The notes beneath the pieces are model-generated. The model made no database searches and was not told the origin of the DNA. It was given only the letters and a program-made list of their open reading frames with translations. From Naegleria gruberi (lineage: Eukaryota), in the NCBI GenBank assembly GCA_000004985.1, contig GG738854.1: 64,000 nucleotides of DNA; one strand, given 5' to 3'. Shown here piece by piece: positions 26,836-54,130 of the stretch (its first letter is position 1; every line of letters starts with the position of its first letter). The position numbers and the translations under genes are program-made.

Positions 26836-26885
26836 NNNNNNNNNNNNNNNNNNNNNNNNNNNNNNNNNNNNNNNNNNNNNNNNNN
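26836..26885. other. Assembly gap (50 N) inside a tandem duplication
   Basis: A literal run of n characters. It is flanked by the truncated copy A and the re-start of the duplicated upstream sequence. Confidence 0.95.
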
Positions 26886-34571: not shown

Positions 34572-35078
34572 GGATGATTCGAAATACAATTCATGGATCC
34601 AATGGTCTGTTGAAAGTATGTACTGGAATGTTAATTTAAAGTTGAGTACATTGTTTGTATGGTAAGTGTTATGTTTTCCTTTTTCGTGTAAGAAAATCAT
34701 ATTAGTGAACTAGATTCTTCTCTCGAGTTTGAAAGGTTGATCTAGGGTGGCTATCATACCAATAAAGGTACATTCAAAATATATCCTCGGTAAAAATATC
34801 CTTCCTTGATTTCTAATAATTACTAAATAATTATTTCTTACTTGGAATTGTAATGGTAAATAAAAGGAAGCAAGTCACCAATATTGAAATTTCTATTGTT
34901 CAATTATGTTGAGATATTTACAAATAGGTTTGTAGTAGACAAAATAACATTCCCAACCTAATTGACCATCTATCGTACGGTAGAAGGACCTAAATAAGTG
35001 TTTCTTCTGTAGTACATTGTAATTTTATACAACAAATTACAATTTATTTCCTCACTACTTCCAAATGATGATGTCATT

Positions 35079-36212: not shown

Positions 36213-36748
36213 TTCTTCAAATTCTCTAGTTTGTTGTTTTTTAATTAAAAAGAAAATAGATAACTCTTTTATCCTTCAAATAAATGTTGAAGTTTGGCAG
36301 GTAAGTTTTTTAGTTTTTTCTAAAGATGTTTTTATATTTGGGAAGGAGATGTAAGGGTTAAAGTTCCACCAAAATGCCCTTTGAACTTGTTTGGAACTAG
36401 TAGTTTCGATCTTTCCAAATTCTTTCCAATCCAACATGTAATTTCATTTACAGTTTAAATAAAATCAAAATGCAAGTTGTTCAAAAAAAATAGTAATCAT
36501 CATTTTGAGGAAATCAAAATTTAAAATTAAGGAAAAACATTTTGCAAAGACAAAATTCTTTTTCCTCATTTCTCAATAAATTGTAATTTCACATGTTTTC
36601 TAAAACAATTTTTTGTCATTTATGAGAGGGATATTATTCAATATGAAAAACATTACTTAATTTTATTAAATATTAATATTTTTATATTATTAAATATTAA
36701 TTAAATAAAATATTATTTGATTATTTATTTATTTAAATTCAAAAAAAA

Positions 36749-39569
36749 ATGAGTGGATCGGCAGGGAAGGATTTTTCTCATTCTTTGCAAATCCACCTCA
36801 AACAAGCCTTGTTTTATTCATTGTATGGAAGAGTTTCGGAATTGGAAGGTGGAAATTATGAAAACAAAAAACGAGGAAATTCAATGGAAAAGATTGGAAA
36901 GAGGCTTTTGAAGGAATACGAGACAATTATTGAGTGGATGGAAAATGATGGAAGGGAAAATTCATCATCGTTGAATGAATGTAAATGTCTGTTTATGGAT
37001 TGGAATTTATTGAAGAGGAGGTTTAATTATTTAAAATTCAAGTTTTATGCTTCGTTTGTGGAGAGGACACGAAAATTAGATTCAATGATGAAGTGGTTTG
37101 CTAAATTTACGAGAATGATAGTGTTTCCGATTAGAATGCTGAGGAGATTGATATTCTCATCGATGAAAATTCATATCAATTCCGAGTTGAAATCATTGAT
37201 AATTGTTCCGAGAGAAAAGCTGTCGTGGATTGTGTTATTTTCAGATAGAGTCTTGTCGAGTCATTCCAGTATTGCTCAATTATTTACTTGTTGGAAGCAT
37301 GTAAAGGCAGAAATTGAACGAGTGAAAAAATTGAGGTATGGAACGATTGTGGAGAGATTACAGCTCTATTTGGTATTTAGAAAATTGAGTTTAAGACTGG
37401 AGCAACAATCGCGTCATCACTCTTCACATACTCGATTTTTACTAGATTTTGGTTTGAAAGGATTGGAAAAATTCGAGCATGATGTTCACCATTTGAAAAA
37501 GCAACCACTCTCTCCTTCTATTGATAGCTTTGTGCACTTGGCCAAAGTTTACAATCCCATCGAGAATGAAGAGTATTCTGGTATACTCACTTTCGAAATG
37601 CTAGATAATTTATTGGGACATGTTGGTGTAAAATCAACATTTATGGAAAAAAGCGAGGATATAACAATGATATTTTCCAGAATATTGGATTCAATGGAAG
37701 TAATTTCAAATAAGTGTATTAGGAATTTACTATCAAAAGTCAAAGTAAATGGAAAGATAGAAAGGAATCAACATGTCTCAAAATCTCACCTCTACAAATC
37801 GTTCAATGTTTGGAAGTCCATGTTTTCAAAAACAGACAACTCTAAAATCTATCCCTACTGGGAAGAAATTGAGGAATTTATGGATACGTTCATACATATG
37901 AAAGGAAGCACAATCATAAGCTTTTTCATGTATCTTTTCAATGTGAAGACCCTTATAGAATTTATAACTTGTAAACTTCGAGGAACATTTGTAAATGTAA
38001 ATATTAATCAATCTGTAGAGAGCACACTACACCAAGCAAGTGACATGTTGATGAATTTGGAATCAGGACTCAATGAGGAATATTCTGTATTTTCCTTTTC
38101 ATATTTGAGACAAAGTATTGGAGAGATTTGTAATTTTGAAGAATTATTGGAAGAAATAGATTCCAATAGAAAGAAACATGCTCTTCAAAATTTTATTATT
38201 GTAAGTGCTTTAAGTTATTAATTATAATTTTATTCAATATGAAAATGTAGGACCGAATAATTGATAGATTATTCTGTGCATACTTTTTAAAGCAGACTAT
38301 TTCTAAATTAAATAACTCTGCTCAAACTAACTTGTTACAAACTAACTGGATTTTGGAGAATTTTCCATACAAGTTTATGAATGATTTTGTAAATTTGCAA
38401 TCAGAGAGAGGTCAACATTTTTCTACGAAAGTGGATTATTTTATTACTTGTTTAAAGGCAGAATCAACGAGCTCTTTGCAAGAATCTTCTCTCCTCAATT
38501 ATTTACTTTCAATTTATTCAGAAATTAAAACGTAAGTTTATTAAGAACATAAATAGAGATGAAAATCAGCAGTGCTAACGAAAATCCTCTGAAGAAATCA
38601 TTTTTGGGAATATTATCAGAAATACTAGTGGAACACAATGAAACCTCGAATTCGCTTGTTCAAATTTTGAGTAGAAAACTGTCAGGTTTTAACAGAAAAT
38701 ATGTAAAACGATTTTCCAATAGAATTATTAATGATGAAATGGAAATGCTAGCCATGATTAGCAACAATGAATCTGAAACTGTTTCGGAATGGATCACATC
38801 CATGCGAAAGGACTTAATTTTGAAAATGCTCTATTCGTGCTACATTTCTCAAACGGCAAAGTATGCAATTTTAAACAAACTCTTAGAAAATAGAGAACCA
38901 ATCCAGAGAAGTAATATTTTACTTTCCGTCTTGGTTCACTATTCGAGCATTGTAACTGTTGGTACCAATTTATGGATTGAAAACCAAATTCGCTCCCTAT
39001 TGGAAAGGAAAAAACTTGGGCTTATTGAGGATGAAACCATTTTATTGATAAGGAGCTTTAAAGCATTTAGAATTGACAAAATGGAACAATCAGCTGGCCC
39101 TTTAAATTATAATTATGATGGAACCTGGTTTGCTCAACAATTGAAGCTCAATAGAGATTGGAATGAATTGATGCGAAAGATTGCAGATGAAAAGCAACTC
39201 TCAACCATCACAAAAACTCTCTACGCAGCCAATCCTAAGAAGATTGGTAAGATTAAATATGGGAAAAGATGGTATGATGATAATTTGGAGCCAGATAAAT
39301 GGAAACTCAATCCTGAGGATAAAACATGGGAATATGATAAGAGAACACAACAAAAGAATCGATCTAATGATGTCACTAACTCGGAAGAAATTAATCTTAC
39401 TATCAATGATACTTGGCACTTGACTATTAGTACAAAAACATTTTTAATTAACGATCCATCATTCCAAAGAATGATAGTTCCAAAACAAGAAAATAATTCA
39501 TCACTGTGTTCTCTATCAGCATGGGAATCATTAGCCTTGTGTAAATTTACGGAATCAATTCAAAATTAA
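36749..39569 (+). CDS. Hypothetical protein, probably multi-exon (segments 36749-38200, 38251-38531, ~38570-39569)
   Basis: ORF 1 ends at a GTAAGT donor (38201). The next segment follows an AG acceptor (38249-50) in frame and ends at another GTAAGT (38532). The join to the third ORF would need a 38-bp intron, so that splice is uncertain. No domain is recognised. Confidence 0.3.
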
Positions 39570-39577
39570 TAAATTGT

Positions 39578-39907
39578 CTAGAGTAATGGATGAGGAGCTT
39601 CTTCAGATGGTGGATTCTCTTTCTTTTGAGTTTCAAAAATTTCTTTAGATGGAACCTTTTGAATGGCATTCTTGACAGGGAGTGGAGAATCGTGGAAATC
39701 TATTATTCCAGAACTGGAAGGTTTTTCATCTTTTGGAGGTGTATTTACAGTATCATCCTTTGTTTCATCAGTTTCACGTGGCGATTTTGGTGAAAGCTTT
39801 TTCATAATCCACTCAATTTCTCTATCTTCAAAAGGTAATTGGAATTTGAGACAATCTCTCACATGTTTCAATTCAGCCACAGACATTAATAATCTATCCT
39901 CATCCAT
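39578..39907 (-). CDS. Small charged hypothetical protein (109 aa)
   Basis: ORF only. Confidence 0.2.
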   Translation of the reverse strand: MDEDRLLMSVAELKHVRDCLKFQLPFEDREIEWIMKKLSPKSPRETDETKDDTVNTPPKDEKPSSSGIIDFHDSPLPVKNAIQKVPSKEIFETQKKENPPSEEAPHPLL

Positions 39908-39979
39908 TTTTCCACTATATTCGAAATTAAAATTATAATTGAAAATTAAAAGTCAGTTAAACATTCACAATAGAAACAC

Positions 39980-41704
39980 TTACTCTAAAGCCATTTCTTG
40001 TAATACATTTAAAACTACATCAACAACATCACCCAACTTCTTTTCCTTAGCAACATAGGATTGAGCTTCATTGGAATAAGAGTGGTGTGAAGTTGCCATT
40101 GTTCTTATGGAAGGGGTTGGATTATTGAGTGGTTTAATCTTTCCAGGGAATAATTGACCAACACCACCGAATAAAGAAGGGGATGGTTTGCTATTTGTAG
40201 TGCCATTACCATTTGTTTTCTTTGGTGAAACTGAATTTGAAGAAGAGGTTGGTTGAGGAATGAGCTTTGATGTCTTGATGCTTCTCTCAGTGATTGGCAC
40301 ATCCTTTTGCATTCTTTGGAAAGGAGATGAATCAACTTCTTGTGCAACTTGCTTTACAGCCATGAGGGGAGTAGCAGTTGGTGAAACATCATTCGTCAAG
40401 GGCTCCATAGATGGAAGCAAACTGTTTGGTCTAGATCTTGACTCTAAGGCTTGCTCAATGAAAATGTGTACATCCTCAACAGGTGGATATCTCATCAATC
40501 TCTTCAAGCAATAACTTGAATCAGAGGCGAGCAAACTCTTTCTAATATAGTGCAACATGGCAACTGAGATGTGTTCAACGAGTGAGAGATCAATATCCGA
40601 TGAAGAAACCTTCTCAGCTCTGAAACCTCCACAATCCGAGAATATTGCATCCCACAAAATGATTGCATCATCAATGTGGAATTCTCTACCGAAAAGTAAT
40701 CTGACCCATCTCAATAAATATATTTGTGGTTCAATTGCCATCTTGATGAGATGTCTGTACAGTTCTGGATCTTTCTTTTCGAGGAGTAAGTATTGAATTC
40801 TATTTGAAATTTTGAAAATCGGTAAATCATAAGCATCAATCTTTCTTTCTCTATTTAACATTTCATCGAGTGGACTCTTGGTAGCAATTTTGGAAAGAGT
40901 ATTTTGAACCACTGGTTTTTCATTAACAAGGAAGAACTCTTTCATTTTGCTCATTAATTTCTCAAAGAGGCAATATGTATCATGCTCCAAATATTTACGA
41001 TCCAACAAGTTCAGAATGAGTTTCAATTTTTGATCCTCCTCCTCAGTCATCATGTATTCATATTTGGAAATATCTTGGGCATCTCTATATACAACTAACA
41101 AAATTGGTGACAATAACTCGTGCATTCCTTGTCTGTACGAAATATCATCATTTTCTTTCGACCAAATAAATAACATTCTCTTTAAATAATTTTGAATTTC
41201 TTCAGTTCTAAAGAATGGATATTCTGGATACAATCTCTTTAAATCTTGAACAATAACCTTTTCCAATTCTGAATTTTCAAAGAATTCAGACCAAGGATTC
41301 TATTTTCAAATGATAATATCATCATCATCATTAATTGATAATAGATTTTAATAGAATTCATTAATTTGAAATAATGTTAATAAATCCACATTGTTTAAAC
41401 AATAACCTACCGATTGTGATTGTGAAAGAGGATCACAAAATGTAACATCAACAACATCATCCTCTGATGAATTTGCTGCTTGTGTTTTTCTTGGATCAAT
41501 TTCATGCTTTTTAATCAAATCCTCATATCTGGCTCTATCATTATTCACTTTAGCATTCCAATGATCAGTTCCTTCCTTCTTATTCAGTGGAAGTAATCCG
41601 AGAAATATCTTCCAAATGATGGAACGTATGGTTGATTGTCCCAAATTACCAGACAAGGATTTTGTACATAATCCTTGAAGAAGAGAAGTTGAATCTCGAG
41701 ACAT
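39980..41704 (-). CDS. TBC-domain Rab GTPase-activating protein (TBC1D5-like); exons 41704-41411 and 41299-39980, intron 41410-41300 (GTAGGT...AATAG, 111 bp)
   Basis: Exon 1 holds IRSIIWKIFLGLLP and DPLSQSQS. Exon 2 holds NPWSEFFENSELEKVIVQDLKRLYPEYPFF (Arg finger region) and ISYRQGMHELLSPIL (YxQ Gln finger). These are the TBC signature motifs in the correct order, and the splice phases are consistent. Confidence 0.65.
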
Positions 41705-42369
41705 GATGATTTGTTCAAATTCCTTACTAATTAAAATTAATATTAATTGATAATATTCCGAAATTTAAATATATTTAAATATTTTAATATTATTATTAAT
41801 CATAATGATAATTCCAATAATTTAGACCATATTCCAATATATTGTAATCCATTCATTACACGATATTAACATAAAATAATTATAGTAAACAATTTTCATC
41901 ATCATACAAAAATCAAACTCTTCTTTCTCTAACAAAAAACACGTACATTTGCAACATGAAATCATTCACTCTAACCGAGAGAAAAATCTCTTCGTCTTCC
42001 TCATAGGCTGGTTGTGAATTCATTTTAATTATTGTGTGTGCTTCATGTTTGGAGCATTCTCCGAACTATGTTGCTAATCCATCAACACAATATTGCCACA
42101 TCACTTTGCAAAGGCTTGTTGGAGTTTCGCGCCCAAAAAATATCTTGTGTAACGGTCAAAAAAATCATCAAAAAGTGTCTCGGCATGAGATTATTAGGTC
42201 GGAGTTTGATTGTATGAAGAATTGAGTGGATTCATGTATTCATCAATGTATGAGTTTATAGTATGATAGTAGATAAGTGGTGGAGTGATGAAAATTTGTT
42301 ATTTATTTACAAGGAAGAAATACATTCGATTATGAATTTCAAATTGTTGATTACGGAATTATTCTGGTA

Positions 42370-43464
42370 TTATTTCTTCTTTTCCTGCTTGAGCTTCTTT
42401 TCAAGTGCACTGTTGAAACCATTATTTGCATGCGAACCTGAATGGTTTTGTGATTTATGTTTGCCCAAATTTTCTCGACTAGCATAACGCTTTCTATGAT
42501 TGACAAACCATGTCTCTAGTTGTTCCTTGGTCATGCTATATTCAATCTCCTTCAATAGTTCTTGCTTCTGTTCCTCACTTGGATAGGGATAGTCGGGATT
42601 ACGTATTATGAAGTTTTTGAGAATATCAGTGTGTGCCTTACTGTAGGTGGTTCTTTTTCTCTTCCTCTTTGTCTTCTCTTCATTAGAGTCCTTGGTAGAT
42701 TTGGATTTGGAGGATGTAACTTTGGAAGAAACTGATTTGCTTCTTGTGATACGAATTGTTTCAACATCACTATCAGAGGTAGGATCGAAAGAAGTGTCTT
42801 CATCTTCATCTGAGGAAGAGCTTTCATCAGAATCTGAATCCATTGTCTTTCTCTTCTTTGATTGAGGTTCTTCTGCTTGAGATCTCAAATTATAATTCTT
42901 TTTCACACCATCCTTTGTTGTTGATGTAGAACCATTATGTTTTGACTCTACAGAGGTAGTAGGAGAATGAATTGAATCTCCTTGTGCACAAGGAGAATCC
43001 ACCTTCTTCAAATCTCTATAGTACTGTATAAATTTCTGCTCTACTGGTTCTACTTCCTGTAATAATTTAAGAGAACGAGAATCTATTGCACACACCAATT
43101 GGTCAAACATTTTGGATAAATCCCTTCCTGGAATTGTTAATGGAATTATATTCTCTTGTAGTGGATTGGAAAGAAAAGATATTTGATTGGTATCTTTAAA
43201 TAATTCATTGAAATGAAGGAATTCATCATCCTCAAAAGCAAAGCATTCAGTATCTGTCAGATAACTCAAGATGCTATCACAACAAGACCAAGGTTTACTT
43301 GCTTTCATATTTGCTTTTTTGTTTAAGGATTGCATTTTGATGTCATCCCTCAATTGAGTCCTATTAATTCGTCTTTGAGAGGCCATCAATGACTGAACTC
43401 TACGGAATTGATTCCATTCTCTCCAATCTGATGTACCCATCAAATAGACATCCATCATTAACAT
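42370..43464 (-). CDS. TALE-class homeodomain transcription factor
   Basis: The C-terminal homeodomain reads KRKRKRTTYSKAHTDILKNFIIRNPDYPYPSEEQKQELLKEIEYSMTKEQLETWFVNHRKR. The three-residue loop extension (PYP) and the WFxNxR helix 3 are characteristic of TALE homeoboxes. An acidic/Ser-rich region lies upstream. Confidence 0.6.
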   Translation of the reverse strand: MLMMDVYLMGTSDWREWNQFRRVQSLMASQRRINRTQLRDDIKMQSLNKKANMKASKPWSCCDSILSYLTDTECFAFEDDEFLHFNELFKDTNQISFLSNPLQENIIPLTIPGRDLSKMFDQLVCAIDSRSLKLLQEVEPVEQKFIQYYRDLKKVDSPCAQGDSIHSPTTSVESKHNGSTSTTKDGVKKNYNLRSQAEEPQSKKRKTMDSDSDESSSSDEDEDTSFDPTSDSDVETIRITRSKSVSSKVTSSKSKSTKDSNEEKTKRKRKRTTYSKAHTDILKNFIIRNPDYPYPSEEQKQELLKEIEYSMTKEQLETWFVNHRKRYASRENLGKHKSQNHSGSHANNGFNSALEKKLKQEKKK

Positions 43465-43878
43465 GTTCTAAAAATTAACAATTTTACATGTTGTTAATAA
43501 TTAACATTTGATTTGCCATATTGAAAATTTTCATATGTTCAAATCTGACCAGTACCCTTATTATTATTTAAGTCGATCATCACACTTTACAACTTCAACA
43601 TTGGAAATGAAAATCGCAACGATGAACTCGGCATTCAGCACACCATGAACAAGTAAACACATTGATCCAAAAATAAAATCGAAAAAAAATTCGCAGGGAG
43701 TTTTTTCATAATCGTCGCATTAAATTTATAATTGCTCTGCTCCTCTGCTTGCTGTATTTGTGTGATTCATCATCAATTCTGTACAACAATAAGAATATTT
43801 TGTATTTTAAATAGTATTAATACTATATAAACATCATCAGTAGTATATACTTCTGCTAGAGATTTCGAGAGTTTCAAA

Positions 43879-46309
43879 ATGAGTCAAGGAGGAAAGACAC
43901 CATCTTTGGGTGGAACCAACAAGTTGCTCATTCCTAGTTATATTCAAAGAAAGGGACAAATGGGAAAGAGTGATGTTGATGATAAATTGGAAAAAATCAT
44001 CCATGCTATTGATCAAATCTATCAAGAAAATCAATCCCAATTATCTTTCCAAGTTCTTTATACGTAAGTTGTTATTGTTTCTATAGAAAAAGGAGATGAT
44101 TTACCTTGATTCGTGTTATTGTTAATTATTCCATATTTTGTTGATTTGATGGCCTTTTCTCCACTTTCCATCATTTTAATACAACACACAATATGATCAA
44201 CAACAAAAACATGATGATCTACACAACAATAATGATAGATCGGGCTACCAAATCGTTCTTCACAAAAACGGAGACTCATTATATGATGCTGTCAAGAACA
44301 AGCTCAGCGAATACATTCAAGGTGTTAGAGAAAAGACTATGGAATTCACTGATGATGGATTCTTGAAGGAACTTTTAAAACAATGGGAAAAGCACAGAAC
44401 ATCCGTAAGCATGGTCAGAGATATTCTCATGTATATGGATCGTAACTATGTTAAACAATTTAAAAAGACACCAGTTTATGAACTTGGTATCAAACTTTTT
44501 GGTACTGAAGTTTTCCACAAATCTACTTTGGAAAGAATTCAAAGACTTATCATGGATATTATCCTCAAGGACAGATGTGGTGAAGTTGTTGCCGATCGTT
44601 TCTTAATGAAGAGTCTTACACAAATGATGATTGAAATTTCCAAGAAGGATATCTATGAAACTCACTTTGAAAAGAAGCTTTTAGATGAAACTAGACAATT
44701 CTATACCAAGGAATCCAATGAATATTTCGAATCTTCTACTGCTACTGATTATCTTAAGAAGGTTACTCTTCGTTTGAAGGAAGAAAGAGAAAGAGTTGAC
44801 AGATGTATGGACCCTGATACTAAACCAAAAATTGAAGCTGTTCTCAAGAATGTAATGATTGATAAGTATAAGCATAGAATTATTGAAAAGGAAGGATCGG
44901 GATGTATTGCCATGCTTCAAACTTGGAAGGTTGATGATTTACGTCTTGTATTCGATGTCTTGTCACTTGTTGAAGGTGCTTTGGATCCATGTGTTGATTT
45001 GGTTGAAAACTTTTGTAGAAGTGAAGGTTATCAAATTGTTAAAGATAAGAATAAGGAAGAAAATCCAGTCGATTTTATTGCTGACTTGATTGTTTTGAAA
45101 GAAAAGTATGAAGGTTTGCTTGATCGTGCCTTCTCTGTCAAGAAGGGTAAACAATCTGCCAGAGATTCTAAATTCCAAGCTTGTGTTAAGAAAGCTTTTG
45201 ATGATACTATTAATGCCAATGAAAGATTCCCTGAATTCTTGTCACTCTATGTTGACAGCAAGTTGAAGAAGGGTAAGACCCAAGTTAGTGAATCTGAATT
45301 TGATGTTCTCTTTGAACAAGTTATTACTCTCTTTAGACATTTGCGTGAAAAGGATATTTTCGAAAAGTATTACAAGACTCACTTGGCTAAGAGATTGCTC
45401 AATCAACGTTCACAATCTGATGATGCTGAAAAGGCCTTTATCGGTAAATTGAAACAAGAATTTGGTTATCAATTTACTGCCAAACTTGAAGGCATGTTTA
45501 ACGATATGAGACTTTCCAGAGAAACTAATGAATCTTTCAAGTCTTATATTGATAGATTTCCAAACAAGAAACCAGCTATTGATTTGTCTGTTCAAGTTTT
45601 GACAACTGGTTACTGGCCTGTTACTCAATCTATTGCAATTACAGTTCCAGAAACTATTGACAAGTCTGCAAATATTTTCAAGGAATTCTATATTGATTCT
45701 CACAATGGTAGAAAGCTTACATGGCAATACAATATGGGTAGTGCTGATATCAAGGCTAATGGTTATGATAAGAAGTATGAAATTAACGTTTCCACCTTCC
45801 AAATGGTTGTCTTGTTGTTGTTCAATGAAAAGGAAACTATTTCATATGGTGATATTTTGCAAACTACCAAGATTCCAATGAATGAATTGAAGAAGAACTT
45901 GCTTGCTTTGACTGTCAAGACCGCTACTCACCAAAAGTTATTGACTTCTAGCACTGATAAGACTTTGACTAAGGAATCTGTTTTTACTGTAAATAATGAA
46001 TTTGAAAGTAAGCTTATCAAGGTTAAGATTGCACCAATCGTTTTGAAGGAAACTAAGGAACAACAAGAAGAAACTAAACAAAAGATTGATGAAGAAAGAA
46101 AATGGCTTTTGGATGCCACAATTGTTCGTATCATGAAGGCAAGAAAGACCTTGGAACACAGAGACTTGGTCATTGAAGTTACTAAACAATTGCAACAAAG
46201 ATTTATGCCATCTCCTGACATGATTAAGAAGCGTATTGAAAGTTTGATTGAAAGAGAATATTTAGAACGTTCACAAGAGAGTCGTTCCAAGTACAACTAT
46301 GTAGCATAA
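43879..46309 (+). CDS. CUL3: Cullin (CUL3-like); exons 43879-44063 and 44239-46309, intron 44064-44238 (175 bp), ~751 aa
   Basis: The N-terminus LSFQVLYTSGYQIVLHKNGDSLYDAV matches human CUL3 [26 protein letters not shown], and MVRDILMYMDRNYV matches MIRDILMYMDRVYV. The C-terminal cullin-homology and neddylation region reads ...IVRIMKARKTLEHRDLV... Confidence 0.75.
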
Positions 46310-46408
46310 GTTAAATTACTTATAATATTAAAATCATAATTTATTTTTGTAAACTACAACCATATCTCTACAAGTTCAAGGATTTGATCATATGAATGAA
46401 TATAAAAA

Positions 46409-47662
46409 ATGTCAACACAAGATGTTCTCTGTTATGCATTTACATTTCTCGATTATTCACACGTAGGAATCTTGTGTCTCGTCTGCAAGGAATGGAACAT
46501 GATTGCAAGCTCAAATCGATTATGGGAATTTTACTTTCATCTTTTATCCAACAATCGGAGTGGAAAAACAAAAGTACCAACAGAAACCATCACCAATAAT
46601 CCCAAATTCTGGAAACACAAAATACGAGACAATTTTACAAACTACACTTGCAGAACCTCAAAGAGAATTGATCCGAGAAGTTCTTTACCAAGTTTATTGA
46701 AAGGAAGTTTTCCAGACAATTTTTCATCACTCTATTCTAGAATGAATTTGAGAAAACCATTCAAATTAGTTAGTACTACTTGGGAAGAGGAATTTAACAC
46801 CAATCAGACTTATTACAAGATGAGTGTGAAAATTAGTGGAATTGATTCACCATTGATTGTGAGATGGAGTACGATTAGCAGTAATTTTGGACTTTTTGAA
46901 TATAACTATTCCAAGCTGTTTTATTATTATTTTGCAATGGAGAAGGATGACTTGTTGAATGAAAATGAGTTTTTTGTGAAGGAAATGAATAGTGCAGATT
47001 TTGAAAATTTGGGAAAGAGTAATAGAGCTTTCCTTTTCAAATTTAATGGAAAGGCTAATCCAGGAAGCGTCTATGGAAAGGAATATTTGGTAAGGGAGAT
47101 TCTTGATTATTTGGTTCCAACTGTGAATTCATACCAAATGTCACCAATGAACTTCATTCCATATTGGTGTTTCTTATTCGATTTGATTATGTATTCTAAT
47201 GATTATCATAAGGAACTTTACAAACACTATCCTGCCATGATTTCCCATCCATCCGTATACAAATTCTTCTACCTGAAATACCAACCAAGAGTTGTAACAA
47301 TTACAAAATCTGCTCTGAATCAATTTTCCACCTATAAACCAGGCAATGAAACTGAAACGAAGCTCTTCAAATCCATCACAGAAAACCATGTTGAATCCAT
47401 TAATTTCGAATCAGAAAATAGAGAGCAACTCATGACAGGCATTCAAGGTTTGTACAAAATAATTGTTTCACGTCCCTCAAAGTTTTTCCCTCCCTTACCA
47501 CTCGCAAAAACAATTCAATATGATGAGAAGGAGGAATTTGAAATTAAGGCAAGCTATTTGGCAAGTGTTTACAAAATGTGTAAATATATGGATGAACATA
47601 TGGATTGGTATTTGGGAAGTAAACTTAGAAAATCATATCAAATTGATCTGTCTAATAAATAA
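46409..47662 (+). CDS. F-box-like domain protein
   Basis: The N-terminus LCYAFTFLDYSHVGILCLVCKEWNMIASSNRLWEFYF fits the F-box pattern (L..a...L......l.l.VCK.W..l.....LW). The rest is unassigned. Confidence 0.4.
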   Translation: MSTQDVLCYAFTFLDYSHVGILCLVCKEWNMIASSNRLWEFYFHLLSNNRSGKTKVPTETITNNPKFWKHKIRDNFTNYTCRTSKRIDPRSSLPSLLKGSFPDNFSSLYSRMNLRKPFKLVSTTWEEEFNTNQTYYKMSVKISGIDSPLIVRWSTISSNFGLFEYNYSKLFYYYFAMEKDDLLNENEFFVKEMNSADFENLGKSNRAFLFKFNGKANPGSVYGKEYLVREILDYLVPTVNSYQMSPMNFIPYWCFLFDLIMYSNDYHKELYKHYPAMISHPSVYKFFYLKYQPRVVTITKSALNQFSTYKPGNETETKLFKSITENHVESINFESENREQLMTGIQGLYKIIVSRPSKFFPPLPLAKTIQYDEKEEFEIKASYLASVYKMCKYMDEHMDWYLGSKLRKSYQIDLSNK

Positions 47663-47787
47663 TTCCTTTGGGTGAAATCATGCAAGAAGAAGAAAATGAT
47701 AGTAATTGAATGTAATATTGCTTTTATTGCAAACTTGCTAATGTTCTCAGAATTTCCCTTCTCAAATATGTACATTATATTTTACAA

Positions 47788-49290
47788 TTAAAAGTCAACC
47801 TTCTTCTTCTTGAGCTTGTCAACCTTAATCTTATCAATTTTCATTTCACGTTGGAAAGCAAGCGATTGTTTGAATCTGTGATGAGTATCCATCATTACGA
47901 GACAAGTTTCCTTTTCCAAAATATTGAACATATCTTCTGGAAGAGTTTCAATTTGCTTATCATTGAACTTGTCAAGCTTATCCTTGACAGCATCAACCAA
48001 AACGTGAGAAATATTGACAGCCATATCACCTGTAACTTCCAAGAATTCAGTAAAGATTTCAAATGCAACTTCATACTTTTTAGCTTCAACTTCTGCGTAT
48101 TCCTTTTCAAGTGGTGATTCCTTCTTCTTCTTTGATGATTGAGCTGAATCTCCTGAAATATCACTTGAAATATCACTCAATACATTGTTATCACCGAATA
48201 ATCTCATTTGTAAATCCAAAGAACGTTCACACAAGGATCTAAAATATTGAATCTTTTCAAGTAAAAGATAATTTTCAACTGATTTTTCCTTTTCACAATG
48301 AATTTTGAAAAGAGCTCTCAAACCATCATCTTCCATTGTGTCCATCAACATGATTGCATTGGCACGACGAATCTTATCCAAATAAAGTGAATCACGATTG
48401 ATGGCATATGTGAAAACAAAGACAATGATTGGTAGAATGACGAATAGTGAAACTACAATGACAACTAACTGAACCAATGTAATTGCCAATACTTGAGTGT
48501 CCTTTTCCTTTTCCTTAGTTTGCACAAATGAAACCAATTGATCGAGACCTCCCTCAAAAGTTTTTAAAATTGTGTTATACGAATCTGAACTAATCTTTGC
48601 CTGAGCATCTGCCTTTTGATCCTGGAAAACCATAATCATAGTTTGTGAATTGAGTGAATCCAAAGTATTTGAAGCTTCAATCGAAGTTGAATTGAAAGTT
48701 TTTTGAATTGACGCATCGTCCAAATTTCTCAAAATTGTTTGTAAGAGAGTTTTCATTTCCTGTGTTGAATTCTTATAATTAAATTGATAACTATTGTACA
48801 TTGAAAGATCAGCAGCTGCTCCAACAAAGGTATATTTCAAAACTAGTGAATTTGAACTTTCGAATAATGAAGTGACCTTTCCCACAGCAATTAAAATATC
48901 AGTTGATTTCGAACTAGCAGTTATGAAAGCAGCAATTGCAACAGCTGCCAAAACAACCAAACCAACAACTGTCACCATCATTCCAAGTAAACAAGCTAAT
49001 TTCATTGAAGTCAACTCAACCACTCCACAACATGTTCGTAAAGTTATTTTACTTTGACTGAATGAACTTCCCGAACGACCACTTTCACTTGGGTTGACTA
49101 GATTCACCTGTGATTGTGTTACAGTTGGTTTTGTGGTGGTTGGTGAAGCAATAGTGACAACTTTCTTATTCGAAACTTGGGTGGAAATTTGGTTTGGTGG
49201 AAGGTTGAGGTGAGAACCGGAAGTGATTGGAGAGTGTGGTTTATCGCTGGGAGAACCTATCTGACTTGAAGTTGATGTTGTGTTATTCAT
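47788..49290 (-). CDS. Membrane-anchored RGS-domain protein
   Basis: Transmembrane segments are present (LACLLGMMVTVVGLVVLAAVAIAAFI and LAITLVQLVVIVVSLFVILPIIVFVF). The C-terminal region has an RGS-like ...FKIHCEKEKSVENYLLLEKIQYFRS ... AFEIFTEFLEVTGDMAVNIS arrangement. Confidence 0.45.
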   Translation of the reverse strand: MNNTTSTSSQIGSPSDKPHSPITSGSHLNLPPNQISTQVSNKKVVTIASPTTTKPTVTQSQVNLVNPSESGRSGSSFSQSKITLRTCCGVVELTSMKLACLLGMMVTVVGLVVLAAVAIAAFITASSKSTDILIAVGKVTSLFESSNSLVLKYTFVGAAADLSMYNSYQFNYKNSTQEMKTLLQTILRNLDDASIQKTFNSTSIEASNTLDSLNSQTMIMVFQDQKADAQAKISSDSYNTILKTFEGGLDQLVSFVQTKEKEKDTQVLAITLVQLVVIVVSLFVILPIIVFVFTYAINRDSLYLDKIRRANAIMLMDTMEDDGLRALFKIHCEKEKSVENYLLLEKIQYFRSLCERSLDLQMRLFGDNNVLSDISSDISGDSAQSSKKKKESPLEKEYAEVEAKKYEVAFEIFTEFLEVTGDMAVNISHVLVDAVKDKLDKFNDKQIETLPEDMFNILEKETCLVMMDTHHRFKQSLAFQREMKIDKIKVDKLKKKKVDF

Positions 49291-50290
49291 TTTCTTATTG
49301 TTGTTGTTGTTGTGATATCTTGAAGATTAGGATAATATTATTGGAAACTGAAGGATAACATTATGATAACAAGCACAATGCAATAGGGTTGCGTTATTTG
49401 TGCGATAAACAATGCAATTGCATTGCGCAGAAACACGAAACAATTTAAACATTATCAGTCTGAATACGAAACCTACCTATTCTTTGCCGGCAATTTATTC
49501 GAAACAAAATAATCTCTCAAGTGTTGTCTGTTTTTTTTCTGTGTGTATTTTGCATCTCTCTGAGATGTTGATATCTGTTCAAGTGAACATTTCTATGAAA
49601 ATACAAAAAGAAGCACTTGCCATTTTGGAGGCGGAAGAAAGCTGACGAAAGGAATTTTTTAGCTAGTCTGCATTTTAATTGTATAATTCTGTCTAAATGT
49701 TGAGTTGCTTGTCTTTGGGTTGTCTTTCTGTGTTGGTTTCTGATTTGATGTGCGAAATGTAGAGATATTTCGAATAGAGTAAGGTTGAGGGTTGCATCTA
49801 TTGAATTCGCGATGTTGCTTTTGAGATTTCTACATAATAGTATGGAATGGCCACATTGTAAATATGTAGAAATTTACAAAATTCACATTGAAGGAAGTTG
49901 TGACATTGAAGGAAGTGGGAGAAACGAAACTCCATTGCATTTTTGTTTAGTTTTGTTGAATCTTGGGTGAAAGGTTTGGTGTTTGTTTCCATTCCTTGCG
50001 CATCATAAAATGCAATATAGCAATTAGGAAGTGAAAGTTCAGATTTAATAACCGATTGAGCAGAATAATAGATACTGTCGTTTGGCAGTTCATATTTCTG
50101 AACAGAATGCTAGCCGTTCGATAGATGGAAAGTTGTGTTTCAATTTGAATGAGAGGCAAAGTGGAAAGGAATCTCATGGAAAGTAATGGAAGAACAACAA
50201 ATCATGGTTTTGGCAACTTGCTTTCAAACTGAAACACACTCGGCACCTCTTTTAACTGTTGTCTTAACTATGTTGTTTGAAATATTGGAT

Positions 50291-50380
50291 GGTGCGATGG
50301 TCGAGTGGTCTAAGACGACACGTTAAGGTATTCTAATACCGTGTTCCGCAAGGGCGTGGGTTCAAATCCCACTCGCATCA
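50291..50380 (+). tRNA. tRNA-Leu(AAG): tRNA-Leu (anticodon AAG), class II, with a 10-nt intron (50329-50338) 3' of position 37
   Basis: Folded by hand. The acceptor stem ggtgcga pairs with tcgcatc (one G-U) and the discriminator is A. The D-arm is gtc/gac with an 11-nt loop gagtggtctaa. The anticodon stem acacg pairs with cgtgt, and the loop is ttAAGg plus c once tattctaata is removed. A long variable arm and a T-arm gtggg-ttcaaat-cccac complete the fold. No encoded CCA. Confidence 0.8.
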
Positions 50381-50382
50381 AA

Positions 50383-50387
50383 TTTTT
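50383..50387 (+). terminator. Oligo-T Pol III terminator downstream of tRNA-Leu
   Basis: A TTTTT run lies 3 nt after the discriminator base. Confidence 0.4.
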
Positions 50388-50655
50388 GCTTCAACTGAGT
50401 TAATATGGTATTGTGAGAAGGAAAAATCTCTTTACTTTGAGAATGAAGACGGTTCCAGAAGATGAATTTCCTCACAGATGTTGACTTGTTCTGTTTTGCA
50501 AAATGGCACTGTGGCATGACTATTAGAAATCATCCATTTTTTTAAAGTTGACCAGTTAAATACCAAATAGATCAATAAAATCTGATTTCATTGACCTCAA
50601 TTCAATTAGGGAGGTGTTGAATAAATCAATTATTTAATATTAACGATGAGGAAGC

Positions 50656-51384
50656 TTAAATAATGGCAGCTGTTGCTGTAATTTCAATTCTCCATTCAGG
50701 TCTAGCCAATTGAGCTTGAACAGTAGCTCTTGGTGGAGTATTACCTTTTGGAACCCAAGCATCCCATACCTTATTCATTCCAGCAAAATCCTCAACCATA
50801 TTAGCCAAGAAAATTTGAACCATCAATAATTTTGTCTTGTCAGTTCCTGCCTCCTTAAGACGAGCATCAAGCATTGCCAAAACTTCCTCAGTTTGTCCTT
50901 CAATATCCTTAGTTCCATCATCTGGTACTTGTCCTGAAATGTACAAAACTCCCTGATAAGCAGCAGTCTCACTAAAACGTTCTCCAACATGGAATCTCAC
51001 CAAACCATTATTCTCAATTCCTGAACGAGTTTGAGCTTGCAATTGTACCTTAATTTTAGCATCAACTTGTGAATCAATTTCCATCAATGTAACAGCAGGT
51101 AATTGATTTCCAAAAACTCTTCTCAAAACTGAAAAACAACTTGTAAAATCCTCATCCACATTTCTAAATTGGAGGGTGAGTCTTTCAACATCTCGGAGTG
51201 ATGCGGAGGCAACAATTTGCTTGATGGATTGTTCCGCATTGGTTAAACATTGTTCAAATTGTTCGATCAGATTTTGTTCTTGTTGTTGTGGAGTGCTGTT
51301 TGTGATTGGAACGAAAATTGCTCCATTTTCTTCTATGATGGCTTTTTGCATTTTTTTTAACTTTGACTTTTCAAAATATTTCAT
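50656..51384 (-). CDS. RidA/YjgF/YER057c (reactive enamine/imine deaminase) domain protein with a ~120-aa N-terminal extension; intronless
   Basis: The C-terminal 125 aa read AAYQGVLYISGQVP...EGQTEEVLAMLDARLKEAGTDKTKLLMVQIFLANMVEDFAGMNKVWDAWVPKGNTPPRATVQAQLARPEWRIEITATAAI, which matches the RidA family pattern. The N-terminal half is Q/E-rich with no assignable domain. Confidence 0.6.
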   Translation of the reverse strand: MKYFEKSKLKKMQKAIIEENGAIFVPITNSTPQQQEQNLIEQFEQCLTNAEQSIKQIVASASLRDVERLTLQFRNVDEDFTSCFSVLRRVFGNQLPAVTLMEIDSQVDAKIKVQLQAQTRSGIENNGLVRFHVGERFSETAAYQGVLYISGQVPDDGTKDIEGQTEEVLAMLDARLKEAGTDKTKLLMVQIFLANMVEDFAGMNKVWDAWVPKGNTPPRATVQAQLARPEWRIEITATAAII

Positions 51385-51635
51385 AATTTACAAAAACTGT
51401 TACATGGAATAGGTACACGGTGATAATTATTTGAATTGAATAAACTCTCAATATTTATTCGATTTAATTCTTTCAAAGTTCCAAAAATTTAGAATTGGTT
51501 GTTCTCGATATTTTGATGAACATTTAATCATGCGTCTTGTTAAATTCCTCGATTAATTTCCAATCGAATATCTTACATTGCTGAAATACAATATTGACAG
51601 TGATTCCACTATTCACATAACATATCCAAATAATC

Positions 51636-53842
51636 TCAAAAGTCCTGAGAAAGCCTTAAGAGCATTTCTTGACAAACTTTTTCAGGTAATTTGTAAATTC
51701 TATTGGTGTGATCCCTGAAAAGTTGTTTTCTGTTGGTAATGCTAAACTTGACAATCTCTCTCAAAAATTGCTCAAATGATTGTAAATCAAGATATTTTTC
51801 ACATGCTTCAAGTATTGTAAAGTAATTATCAATGGATAGATTAAAGTTATTCTTGCAATAATCGACCAGATATTGAATTTCATGTTTCATTGCCATATCA
51901 AGTAATCCAATAATTTTAACATCATCAATTTTGTCAGTTGAAATTCCATAACAATATTTGATCACAATTTCCAATAATTCCAAATCTTCTGATTCGTCAG
52001 GTGTGAATATTCCATCATCACTCAAATCACTGAAACAAGATCCACTGTCAAATAATGCATTAAACAATGTGCTAAATGAAGTCAATATAGTTTTGTGACA
52101 ATATAAGTATTTGTCTTGTCCCATTTTGATTTTCACATCACTTGTTTTCTTGTCATTATATAATGATTCAATTATTTGTGGCTCAGTTTCAATTGTTTCC
52201 TCAATATTAATTGCAGTTGGTTGAGTAATGATCATTTTTGAAAAAATGGCAGTAGCATTTCTCATAATTATTGGAAGAGTTGGTAATAAAGTGTTTCCTT
52301 TTTTGGTCCTCATTTGAACAACAGCATATTCAATACAATAGTTATTCAAATGATCAAGAATGTAATTTTGAACATTGAATTCCTCATTGCAAATTTTGAG
52401 TAAATTTTCAATTGTTTCCCATTTGAAAGTAAGATTTTCTAATGTGAGTGAGTTCACAAATTCACTTGTCAATGATCTTTTCAAATCAATAAATTCACCA
52501 TTCTTAAATAAACCCAAAATGAATAAAACATCCAAGATTTCTTCTTTGCTAAACTTTACCTTATTCTTATCATACATCAAAGAATCAATTAATTTTTGAA
52601 TAATTTCTTGTGATGAACTCATCAAACAAAGTAACTTTTCATTCTTCAAAATGTTACTAAATTTTGGTGAAGTTTTTTCAATGAGGGGAATGAATCCATA
52701 AATTGGCAATCCAAATAATTCATCTCTTGAATGTTTTTTCAAATTATGAAATTCTATTTTAGAATGTAAGTTACCATTTCCAGTTAATAACTTATTTCCA
52801 ATATGAGGATACGTTCTAATATCAAAAGGTGAATCACCACTGAATCCAGCAGTTCCATTTCCAGCAATTGTTATAATATTTCCATTTTCTAATATTTTTC
52901 TAATTCTATTATTATAATAATCAGCAATATAAACTTCATTATTTGATGAAACAAAAACACTAAAAGGATGATTCAGTCGTGCATTTGTTGCAAGACCATT
53001 ATCACCATTGAATCCATGAATTCCATTTCCAGCAATTGTTATAATATTTCCATTTTCTAATATTTTTCTAATTCTATTATTAAAATAATCAGCAATATAA
53101 ACTTCATTATTTGATGAAACAAAAACACTATAAGGAGATTCAGTCGTGCATTTGTTGCAAGACCATTATCACCATTGAATCCATGAGTTCCATTTCCAGC
53201 AATTGTTATAATATTTCCATTTTCTAATATTTTTCTAATTCTATTATTAAAATAATCAGCAATATAAACTTCATTATTTGATGAAACAAAAACACTATAG
53301 GATGAATTCAGTTGTGCATTTGTTGCAAGACCATTATCACCACTGAATCCATGAATTCCATTTCCAGCAATTGTTACAATATTTCCATTTTCTAATATTT
53401 TTCTAATTCTATGATTACCTTGATCAGCAATATAAACTTCATTATTTGATGAAACAAAAACACTGCAAGGAGTATACAGTTGTGCATTTGTTGCAAGACC
53501 ATTATCACCACTGAATCCATGAATTCCATTTCCAGCAATTGTTATAATATTTCCATTTTCTAATATTTTTCTAATTCTATTATTACCTTGATCAGCAATA
53601 TAAACTTCATTATTTGATGAAACAAAAACACTGTAAGGACGATTCAGTTGTGCATTTGTTGCAAGACCATTATCACCACTGGAACCCTTAGTTCCATTTC
53701 CAGCAATTGTTACAATAGTTCCATTTTCCAATATTTTTCTAATTCTATTATTAAAACAATCAGCAATATAAACTTCATTATTTGATGAAACAAAAACATT
53801 ATTAGGTCGATTCAGTTGTGCACTGGTAGCAAGCGAAGACAT
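51636..53842 (-). CDS. NHL-repeat plus BTB/POZ family protein, copy C (inverted relative to copies A and B); one frameshift near 53127
   Basis: Start MSSLATSAQLNRPNNV, then six NHL units. The frame is lost at aatc-tcctta, where the other repeats have aatcatcctta. The reading then continues into an intact linker and BTB domain (DVKIKMGQDKYLYCHKTILTSFSTLFNALFDSG) ending at 51636. Confidence 0.5.
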
Positions 53843-54130
53843 TTTTTTAATTGTAATCCGAACGGAAACAACAAAATTCAAAGGATGAAAGGTGAATTTG
53901 TTGATACTTCATTCAACAGGAAGCAAAGGATGAGCAATAGACCCTAAGAAGAAAGCAACCAACATATGATGAGGAACATGGCAAGAAACTGAAAATATTG
54001 CCTGAATATTGGTCATTCACTCCGATACTTTACCTGACTTCAAAGCAACAGAGGAAATGCTATGATGAAGCGTATTACTCAAGATGAAGAATACACTGTA
54101 AATCCTACTTTGCTGAGAGTGGTGAAGCAT
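53843..54130. promoter_or_regulatory. Upstream region of copy C, homologous (inverted, ~80%) to the upstream region of copies A and B
   Basis: The reverse complement begins ggtaaagtatcggagtgaatga..., as at 25496-25517, and shares conserved blocks up to the ATG. Confidence 0.3.

What the first reader, a model, noticed from the sequence alone, without database searches (positions are those of the whole stretch)
51636..54130. Inverted third copy of the NHL-BTB unit (promoter plus CDS) 22 kb from the tandem pair
Copy C is the reverse complement of the A/B unit and includes ~250 bp of conserved upstream sequence. Homology stops ~15 bp after the stop codon. Large inverted repeats flanking ~22 kb of unrelated single-copy genes (TBC, homeobox, cullin, F-box, RGS, tRNA, RidA) are substrates for inversion or ectopic gene conversion. 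They also suggest recent dispersal of the whole promoter-gene cassette.
Basis: seen in the sequence. Interest (0 to 1): 0.5.

Follow-up and report, generated by a model that had tools for sequence, protein, structure and literature searches.

The report
Inverted NHL-BTB gene copy in Naegleria
The window (Naegleria gruberi) really does hold a reverse-oriented second copy of an NHL-propeller/BTB gene 22 kb from its partner, an ordinary dispersed gene-family duplicate, but the "tandem pair" it was compared with is most likely one gene assembled twice across a scaffold gap.

Summary
Copy C is real. Its minus-strand CDS runs 53842..51636: six 168-bp NHL units, a helical linker, then a BTB domain. 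It is about 94% identical to the gene at 27.4-29.55 kb, and the spacer is 22,070 bp. Homology covers about 190 bp upstream of the ATG (not ~250; it ends near 54034, not 54130) and stops 13-15 bp after the stop codon. C carries a 1-nt deletion in NHL unit 5, which the public gene model hides with an invented intron.

The organism is Naegleria gruberi. The gene belongs to a species-specific family of at least 12 gene models on several scaffolds.

The "tandem pair" is doubtful. A 50-N gap (26836-26885) separates A from B, and A/B homology abuts both gap edges. The 1,020 bp of non-array overlap has 0 substitutions. The overlapping part of B carries four small indels. Merging A with B gives a clean 623-aa ORF. 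So the locus probably holds two inverted genes, not three.

A 239-bp perfectly identical tract between AB and C (p~1e-4), and a mosaic paralogue (P0003), support gene conversion. Inversion cannot be tested here.

Side observations: the NHL blades are nearly identical to each other except for hypervariable sites on one propeller face, and a Cullin-3-like gene lies between the arms.

The parts
51636..53842 (-). Copy C coding region. ATG at 53842-53840, stop at 51638-51636. After repair of one missing base it encodes 735 aa.
   Evidence: Pfam NHL 88.6 bits, TEN_NHL 134 bits, BTB 37.9 bits. It corresponds to the N. gruberi predicted protein P0002.
52821..53827 (-). NHL array of C. Six head-to-tail 168-bp (56-codon) units starting at 53827, 53659, 53491, 53323, 53155 and 52988. 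Units are 85-97% identical to one another.
   Evidence: (family D2)
53130..53143 (-). Frameshift site in unit 5. The sequence reads CTGAATC-TCCTTATAGT where the neighbouring unit 6 has CTGAATCATCCT, so one base is missing.
   Evidence: The public model P0002 skips 36 aa here.
52167..52742 (-). Helical linker domain of about 190 aa between the propeller and the BTB domain. It has no Pfam match.
   Evidence: AF2 pLDDT mostly 80-97, all-helical
51846..52166 (-). BTB/POZ domain, followed by C-terminal helices (51639-51845) that superpose on the 3-box/BACK region of CUL3 adaptors.
53843..54034 (-). Conserved 5' flank shared with the A/B upstream region (presumed 5'UTR and core promoter). The blocks are 53843-53933 and 53979-54034.
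51623..51635 (-). Last 13 bp of homology, downstream of the stop codon.
26886..29552 (+). Partner arm 'copy B'. It has 611 bp of upstream sequence and a CDS at 27497-29538 with five NHL units. Relative to A/C it carries four small indels, three of them frameshifts in the CDS. It starts at the first base after the gap.
25050..26835 (+). 'Copy A'. It has the same upstream sequence, four NHL units and 405 bp of linker, in one clean reading frame, and ends at the gap. It probably represents the same locus as B.
26836..26885 (.). 50-N scaffold gap, the only N run in the window.
29553..51622 (.). 22,070-bp single-copy spacer between the inverted arms. It holds TBC, homeobox, Cullin-3-like, F-box, RGS, tRNA and RidA genes.

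Best explanation
Copy C is a genuine paralogue, in inverted orientation, of the NHL-BTB gene at about 25.7-29.5 kb of this Naegleria gruberi scaffold. Both belong to a young, species-specific multigene family.

The protein has an N-terminal six-bladed NHL beta-propeller, a helical linker, and a C-terminal BTB domain with a BACK-like tail. This is the layout of a Cullin-3 substrate adaptor of the SPOP type, with the recognition domain first and the BTB domain second.

The duplicated segment is gene-sized, running from about 190 bp upstream of the ATG to about 14 bp past the stop codon. After duplication the copies diverged to about 5-6%, but short gene-conversion tracts have exchanged sequence between them and with other family members.

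The apparent tandem pair A/B is most likely a single gene written twice. The two contig ends overlap, but could not be merged because the near-identical 168-bp NHL units were assembled differently (4 units against 5).

C carries one single-base frameshift, which is either a young inactivating mutation or a consensus error in the repeat.

Shown here: the homology, its limits, the domains, family membership, the pattern at the gap, and the identity tracts. Inferred: the CUL3-adaptor function, gene conversion as the cause of the tracts, and the artefactual nature of A/B.
For: Homology and limits.

Organism and family. There are at least 12 N. gruberi gene models. The young subgroup is 80-91% identical. 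B and C are each other's closest match at 91% aa identity.

Domains:
- Pfam NHL, TEN_NHL and BTB all score above their cut-offs.
- The AF2 model of the C-terminal 368 aa has pLDDT 83. Its best Foldseek PDB matches are SPOP, KLHL11-Cul3 and KBTBD2/4.
- The AF2 model of the intact paralogue P0003 shows 6 x 4 strands with pLDDT >90.

Age: dS 0.063, dN 0.040.

Conversion:
- 239-bp and 142-bp perfect tracts between AB and C (p~1e-4).
- The P0003 mosaic (p<1e-4 and 2e-4).

A/B as an artefact:
- The 50-N gap lies exactly between A and B, and homology runs to both gap edges.
- The upstream region (615 alignment columns) and the linker (405 bp) have 0 substitutions and one 1-nt indel, 15 bp from the contig start. 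C, by comparison, differs from both by 4-6%.
- The B units are mosaics of A units, and B has -1, +4 and -1 indels.
- A's 5' part joined to B's 3' part gives an uninterrupted 623-aa ORF.
- Intact family members have six units, whereas A has 4 and B has 5.
- Highly similar propeller repeats are documented to mis-assemble without long reads (PMC12222747).
- N. gruberi is heterozygous, and only this one assembly of the species is listed in the 2023 pangenome paper (PMC9928731).
Against: - No independent assembly, reads or transcripts of N. gruberi could be reached. Neither the A/B artefact reading nor the reality of the frameshift in C is proven.
- Unit B1 carries a sequence variant (QSNQ) absent from A. 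B is therefore not simply a garbled copy of A. It could be a second allele or a real second copy.
- A very recent true tandem duplication would also give identical flanks truncated by a gap.
- At the protein level, B-C differences are not significantly clustered (p=0.23).
- CUL3 binding is inferred from fold only. At the sequence level neither the protein nor the family profile listed a BTB structure in the PDB (no hits; the 60 hits shown are all NHL proteins).
- dN/dS of 0.63 is compatible with relaxed constraint or decay.
Confidence: 0.72

Rival explanations
1. There are three real copies: a genuine very recent tandem duplication (A then B) plus an older inverted copy C. The gap hides the 3' end of A and the duplication junction.
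For: - The sequence as assembled contains A and B in tandem.
- B1 has substitutions not present in A.
- Homology truncated at both gap edges is also what a real tandem repeat broken by a gap would show.
- The family is clearly prone to duplication.
Against: - The gap would have to hide at least 700 bp of gene A plus the junction, yet it is written as 50 N.
- There are zero substitutions in 1,020 bp but four indels, an error-like spectrum.
- A and B both have fewer than the six blades seen in intact members.
- A and B merge into one clean ORF.
Confidence: 0.2
2. Copy C, or its position or orientation, is an assembly chimera. The assembler jumped between paralogous NHL-BTB loci inside the repeated sequence, so the inverted arrangement does not exist in the genome.
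For: - C is identical over 199 aa to paralogue P0003, which sits on a 14-kb scaffold. The assembly also holds a near-duplicate gene on a small scaffold (P0005 and P0121, 98.7%). Cross-locus joins are therefore conceivable.
- Repeat arrays of this kind are known to mis-assemble (PMC12222747).
Against: - C lies in uninterrupted sequence with no N run between 26886 and 64000.
- It has unique genes close on both sides: RidA about 250 bp downstream and a coiled-coil gene 667 bp upstream.
- It differs from A/B by about 6% throughout, with its own unit signatures such as GDNGLA.
Confidence: 0.06
3. C is a dead duplicate (a young pseudogene) with no function. Its only significance is as a sequence donor or acceptor for the family.
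For: - There is a single-base frameshift in blade 5.
- dN/dS against B is 0.63, and 0.82 in the BTB half.
- The annotators needed an artificial GT-AG 'intron' that removes 36 aa of a blade.
Against: - There is only one lesion in 2.2 kb. It lies inside near-identical repeats where consensus errors are likely.
- The remaining 735 codons are open.
- The promoter-proximal 190 bp is conserved.
Confidence: 0.3

Closest known systems
SPOP and other BTB-type Cullin-3 substrate adaptors (KLHL11, KBTBD2/4; RCBTB1/2 by domain order, from general knowledge)
   Same: Both have a BTB fold followed by helical 3-box/BACK-like helices. The best structural matches are SPOP, KLHL11-Cul3 and KBTBD2-Cul3. As in SPOP, the recognition domain is N-terminal to the BTB. 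As in BTB-Kelch and RCBTB, a beta-propeller serves as the presumed substrate-binding module.
   Different: The propeller is NHL rather than Kelch, MATH or RCC1. A ~190-aa helical linker with no family match sits between propeller and BTB. No BTB structure appears among the sequence-level PDB matches. By eye, the stretch where SPOP and KLHL carry the CUL3-contact motif phi-x-E reads F-S-D. Binding to CUL3 is untested.
Inverted low-copy repeats (segmental duplications) that mediate non-allelic homologous recombination
   Same: There are two arms of 2.2-2.4 kb in inverted orientation at about 94% identity. They are 22 kb apart and contain perfect tracts of 239 and 142 bp.
   Different: No inversion polymorphism or breakpoint is documented. 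The arms are short and diverged, and only one assembly exists.
False duplications at scaffold gaps (unmerged overlapping contig ends or haplotigs)
   Same: For A/B, the duplicated sequence abuts both sides of the gap and the unique parts are identical. Differences are confined to a tandem array plus homopolymer-type indels, and the merge restores an ORF.
   Different: This is not proven at read level. B1 has real-looking substitutions, so allelic variation may be involved rather than pure error.
Podospora anserina HNWD (het-d/het-e) WD40 repeat genes with high internal conservation
   Same: Both are multigene families with propeller repeats about 90% or more identical at the DNA level within a gene. 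Both show a few hypervariable positions on one face, exchange of sequence between family members, and unreliable assembly (PMC1805685, PMC12222747).
   Different: The repeat type differs (NHL, 56 aa, against WD40, 42 aa). The effector differs (BTB against NACHT plus a death domain). The organism differs (a heterolobosean amoeba). No recognition phenotype is known here. The evidence for selection is weak: 10 units, and sites chosen by their variability.

Membership tests
BTB/POZ Cullin-3 substrate adaptor | BTB/POZ fold | tested here: met
   Pfam PF00651 scores 37.9 bits for C and 40.1 bits for B, against a cut-off of 20.5. The AF2 model matches the SPOP BTB domain with a target-normalised TM-score of about 0.6 and probability 1.00.
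BTB/POZ Cullin-3 substrate adaptor | Helical 3-box/BACK-type extension after the BTB | tested here: inconclusive
   The model has about 6 helices after the BTB. The alignments to full-length SPOP and KLHL11 BTB-BACK cover about 200 columns. However, E-values are only about 2e-3 and rmsd is 5-6 A.
BTB/POZ Cullin-3 substrate adaptor | CUL3-contact motif (phi-x-E) and physical binding to Cullin-3 | not testable with these tools
   By eye the equivalent stretch reads ...GSCFSDLSDD..., that is F-S-D. No alignment to a solved BTB was obtained at the sequence level. A Cullin-3-like gene is present in the window, but interaction needs an experiment.
BTB/POZ Cullin-3 substrate adaptor | Separate substrate-recognition domain | tested here: met
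   There is a six-unit NHL array N-terminal to the BTB.
NHL-repeat six-bladed beta-propeller (PF01436 / TEN_NHL) | Six NHL repeats able to close a propeller | tested here: met
   C has six 56-aa units once the 1-nt deletion is repaired. Pfam scores are NHL 88.6 bits and TEN_NHL 134 bits. The family profile hits teneurin, NHLRC2 and TRIM71 NHL structures. The model of paralogue P0003 shows 24 strands with pLDDT >90. As assembled, C itself is frameshifted in blade 5.
Inverted repeats as substrates of NAHR inversion | Two arms in opposite orientation with long, high identity | tested here: met
   The arms are 27395-29552 and 51623-53933, at 89-96% identity depending on the segment (about 94% over 2 kb). 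The longest perfect runs are 239 bp and 142 bp.
Inverted repeats as substrates of NAHR inversion | Both orientations of the interval observed in a population or clone | not testable with these tools
   The only N. gruberi sequence that could be reached was this window. The exact-match look-ups found no other contigs.
Scaffold-gap false duplication (applies to A/B) | Duplicated sequence abuts the gap on both sides | tested here: met
   The A/B alignment runs 25050<->26886 (first base after the gap) and 26834<->28839 (the alignment stops one base short of the gap).
Scaffold-gap false duplication (applies to A/B) | Essentially identical unique sequence, with differences of the error or repeat-collapse kind | tested here: met
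   There are 0 substitutions in 1,020 bp, and the indels include two at homopolymer runs. The B units are mosaics of A units, and the merge gives a 623-aa ORF.
Scaffold-gap false duplication (applies to A/B) | Single-copy read depth, or a long read with one gene | not testable with these tools
   No reads or alternative assemblies are available.
High-internal-conservation repeat recognition genes (HNWD-like) | Repeat units nearly identical at DNA level within a gene | tested here: met
   There are 5-27 differences per 168 bp. Internal units C2-C5 differ by 5-14, and A2/A3 differ by 6. Framework codons have pS 0.033.
High-internal-conservation repeat recognition genes (HNWD-like) | A few hypervariable codons under diversifying selection, clustered on one propeller face | tested here: inconclusive
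   Ten codons were defined as hypervariable from other paralogues. In the A/C units they give pN 0.365 against pS 0.187. The remaining codons give 0.031 against 0.034. The ten codons lie in the strand2-3 turn, just after strand 4 and just before strand 1. By beta-meander topology these are all on the same face. The sample is small, the sites are saturated, and no codon-model test was run.
High-internal-conservation repeat recognition genes (HNWD-like) | Role in self/non-self or pathogen recognition | not testable with these tools
   No literature on Naegleria NHL-BTB proteins was found.

The most novel reading that the evidence does not exclude
The NHL-BTB genes of Naegleria gruberi, including C and its partner, may form a rapidly diversifying family of Cullin-3 adaptors. 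Concerted evolution keeps the propeller blades almost identical, while about 10 residues per blade, all on one face, are hypervariable. Blades and gene segments are shuffled within and between loci.

This would be the same evolutionary device as the fungal het-d/het-e WD40 sensors, here coupled to ubiquitin ligation. It suggests a recognition repertoire, for example against viruses, intracellular bacteria or non-self. Two members flank the Cullin-3-like gene.
Probability: 0.2. Interest if true: 0.55.

Novelty: new member of a known kind. Interest (0 to 1): 0.25.

Why it matters
For the finding as stated, the stakes are small. Inverted paralogues of a lineage-specific gene family are common in eukaryotic genomes, and both genes are already in the public N. 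gruberi annotation as 'predicted proteins'.

The practical value is corrective:
- One public model (P0001, 928 aa) fuses two assemblies of what is probably one gene across a gap.
- Another (P0002) hides a frameshift with an invented intron.
- Copy-number counts for this family in the reference are unreliable.

The wider point, if it holds, is that an amoeboflagellate may have a propeller-repeat family with high internal conservation and a hypervariable face attached to a BTB domain. That would extend a diversification mechanism known from fungal NLR-like genes to a different repeat type, effector and eukaryotic supergroup.

Tried and rejected
- **Independent DNA for this locus or its paralogues.** Exact-protein look-ups of P0003, P0005, P0002 and the neighbouring RidA ORF all returned nothing. 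No second assembly, haplotig or read-derived contig could be compared.
- **Literature on Naegleria NHL-BTB proteins.** The search gave only an unrelated abstract book. The search for the genome paper's assembly conventions failed. The meaning of a 50-N gap in this assembly therefore remains unverified.
- **Sequence search of the linker+BTB half against PDB.** The single-sequence search gave no hits. The profile search listed only NHL structures among the 60 hits shown. The BTB assignment therefore rests on Pfam and fold comparison.
- **Second homologue search with the BTB half.** It returned only 4 proteins, so family size is a lower bound.
- **Retrocopy origin of C.** Considered and rejected. 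The copy includes 190 bp upstream of the ATG and has no poly(A) tract at its 3' limit.
- **Real intron at the frameshift.** Considered and rejected. The modelled GT-AG removes 36 aa from the middle of a blade, and no other family member has it.
- **Bacterial-style promoter and terminator scans.** Not run, because the organism is a eukaryote.
Full report
**1. What is in the sequence**

A self-comparison of the window shows that 51623-53933 is the reverse complement of sequence at 25.6-29.55 kb.
- C 51623-53665 aligns to 29552-27506 ('copy B') at 93.9% over 2,053 bp.
- C 52338-53497 aligns to 26834-25671 ('copy A') at 94.4% (also I1-I25).

On the minus strand the region reads as one gene. The ATG is at 53842. 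Six head-to-tail 168-bp units follow, then a unique stretch, and the stop is at 51636-51638.

The reading frame is broken once. One base is missing in unit 5: CTGAATC-TCC, where the next unit has CTGAATCATCC. With that base restored the product is 735 aa.

**2. Limits of the homology**

- Upstream, it is continuous for about 90 bp. After a ~30-bp indel it resumes in a well-conserved block, C 53979-54034 against A 25495-25549.
- Beyond 54034 the alignment is at background level.

The conserved 5' flank is therefore about 190 bp, not ~250, and the reported end (54130) is about 95 bp too far. The spacer between the arms is 22,070 bp.

- RabGAP-TBC, homeobox, cullin, F-box and RGS genes
- a tRNA
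- a RidA/L-PSP gene

**3. Organism and family**

The best database matches are 'predicted protein [Naegleria gruberi]'. Two of them, P0001 (928 aa) and P0002 (699 aa), lie on one 665-kb scaffold.

Their sequences show that they are the annotators' models of this very window.
- P0002 is C with 36 aa of blade 5 removed. An invented GT-AG 'intron' steps over the frameshift.
- P0001 strings together A, the gap, and B.

Further N. gruberi members are P0003, P0004, P0005, P0017, P0052, P0058, P0059, P0121, P0122 and P0123, on several other scaffolds. One N. lovaniensis protein is 34% identical in the BTB half.

Within the young subgroup (80-91% identity), B and C are each other's closest relatives at 91%. 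Between B and C, dS = 0.063, dN = 0.040 and dN/dS = 0.63 over 368 codons.

**4. What the protein looks like**

- Pfam gives NHL (88.6 bits), teneurin-type NHL (134 bits) and BTB (37.9 bits), all above the curated cut-offs.
- An AlphaFold2 model of C's last 368 aa has mean pLDDT 83. It is an all-helical linker domain followed by a BTB fold and more helices.
- Its best matches among solved structures are SPOP, KLHL11-Cul3 and KBTBD2/4, all Cullin-3 adaptors. The E-values are modest, about 2e-3.
- A model of the intact paralogue P0003 shows six blades of four strands with pLDDT >90.

The most likely function is therefore a Cullin-3 substrate adaptor whose NHL propeller binds the substrate. This is inferred from folds, not shown. 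No sequence-level match to a solved BTB was obtained.

**5. The 'tandem pair' is doubtful**

The only run of N in the window, 50 bases at 26836-26885, lies exactly between A and B.
- A's similarity to B starts at B's first base after the gap (26886<->25050). It stops one base before the gap (26834<->28839).
- Outside the NHL array the two are the same sequence. The upstream alignment (615 columns) has no substitution and a single 1-nt indel 15 bp from the contig start. The 405-bp linker segment is 100% identical. C differs from both by 4-6%.
- Inside the array A has four units and B has five. B's units are mosaics of A's units, and B carries -1, +4 and -1 indels. A is open throughout.
- Joining A's 5' part to B's 3' part at the overlap gives an uninterrupted 623-aa ORF.
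- Intact family members have six units.

This is the pattern of two overlapping contig ends, or two haplotypes, that could not be merged because the near-identical repeats were assembled differently. They were then laid end to end by the scaffolder.
- Such propeller repeat arrays are documented to be unreliable without long reads (PMC12222747).
- N. gruberi is heterozygous, and the 2023 pangenome paper lists a single assembly for the species (PMC9928731).

A very recent true tandem duplication is not excluded. Unit B1 has a QSNQ variant absent from A, and I could not verify what a 50-N gap means in this assembly. I put the artefact or haplotype reading at about 0.75-0.8.

**6. Gene conversion and inversion**

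Between the merged AB gene and C, 66 differing columns in 1,384 leave one run of 239 identical bases (26296-26534 against 52873-52635). The permutation p is about 1e-4. In that stretch other paralogues differ, so constraint alone is an unlikely cause.

At the protein level B-C differences are not significantly clustered (p=0.23).

Paralogue P0003, on a 14-kb scaffold, is a clear mosaic. It has 199 consecutive residues identical to C (p<1e-4) and 86 identical to B (p=2e-4), and it is diverged elsewhere.

Exchange among family members is therefore supported, unless P0003 is itself an assembly chimera. Inversion of the 22-kb interval cannot be addressed with one assembly.

**7. Is C itself an artefact?**

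C sits in gap-free sequence. Unique genes lie about 250 bp downstream (RidA) and 667 bp upstream (a coiled-coil ORF). It also has its own unit signatures. A paralogue-jumping mis-join inside the gene cannot be ruled out but has no positive evidence (about 0.06).

**8. A side observation that is more interesting than the inverted copy**

The six blades of C are 85-97% identical to one another at the DNA level, and so are the blades of A/B. Ordinary NHL propellers have diverged blades (general knowledge).

Variation is concentrated in about 10 of 56 codons.
- I defined those codons from other paralogues and then measured them in the A and C units. This gives pN 0.365 against pS 0.187 at those codons, and 0.031 against 0.034 elsewhere.
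- In the P0003 model these positions lie in the strand 2-3 turn, just after strand 4 and just before strand 1. In a four-stranded meander these are all on one face.
- P0003 also shows a recently duplicated two-unit block.

This resembles the Podospora het-d/het-e WD40 family, which combines concerted evolution with hypervariable sites on the interaction face (PMC1805685; PMC12222747). The evidence here is thin: few units, saturated sites and no codon model. I report it as a lead only.

In addition, the cullin ORF between the arms is most similar to Cullin-3 (498 bits, against 378 for CUL4 and 334 for CUL1). Cullin-3 is the ligase scaffold that BTB adaptors use. This may be coincidence.

**9. 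Verdict**

C is a gene-plus-promoter copy in inverted orientation, with signs of conversion.
- The locus probably has two genes rather than three.
- The phenomenon is an ordinary member of a dispersed gene family already present in the public annotation.
- Interest is low (0.25). Novelty: a new member of a known kind.

Noticed in passing
window 44339-46309 (+): The cullin ORF inside the 22-kb interval is most similar to Cullin-3 (498 bits, against 378 for CUL4 and 334 for CUL1). The ORF starts at about CUL3 residue 98, so the BTB-binding N-terminus must be on an upstream exon. A CUL3-like gene is thus flanked by two putative CUL3-adaptor genes, and an F-box gene lies next to it at 46409-47662.
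   Followed up: partly
window 52821-53827 (C) and 25677-26348 (A): NHL blades within one gene are 85-97% identical at the DNA level. About 10 hypervariable codons per 56-codon unit fall in alternate loops on one propeller face. At those codons pN/pS is about 2, against about 0.9 elsewhere. This pattern resembles the fungal HNWD WD40 repeats with high internal conservation.
   Followed up: partly
P0003 (N. gruberi paralogue on a 13,986-bp scaffold): P0003 is a mosaic protein. It has 199 aa identical to copy C, 86 aa identical to copy B, and is diverged elsewhere. Its NHL units 2-3 and 4-5 form a duplicated two-unit block. The cause is either gene conversion among dispersed paralogues or an assembly chimera.
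   Followed up: partly
P0001 and P0002 (public gene models of this window): P0001 (928 aa) fuses copy A, the N gap and copy B into one protein. P0002 (699 aa) removes 36 aa of blade 5 with an invented GT-AG intron to bypass the frameshift in C. Both models are likely wrong.
   Followed up: yes
P0005 (23.6-kb scaffold) vs P0121 (236-kb scaffold): These two N. gruberi NHL-BTB models are 98.7% identical in the BTB half but sit on different scaffolds. This suggests that small scaffolds in this assembly are alternative haplotypes, so family counts are inflated.
   Followed up: no
window 21570-25003 (-): A large NHL-repeat gene, 29-36% identical to C's propeller, has a hydrophobic signal-peptide-like N-terminus and no BTB domain. 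It is transcribed divergently from copy A, with its start 659 bp from A's ATG.
   Followed up: partly
window 50290-50381 (+): A tRNA gene of about 90 nt scores 47.9 bits in Rfam. ARAGORN could not name its anticodon, so it presumably contains an intron.
   Followed up: no
window 15202-15501 and 16075-16374: Another direct repeat pair, 300 nt at 74% identity and 873 bp apart. It is unrelated to the NHL-BTB genes.
   Followed up: no
one search hit list; Outside Naegleria, the closest relatives of the NHL propeller are bacterial proteins (45-57% identity, annotated by their sources e.g. as 'sugar lactone lactonase YvrE' or 'TIGR03437 family') and a teneurin-like protein in the PDB. The origin of the domain in Naegleria was not examined.
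   Followed up: no
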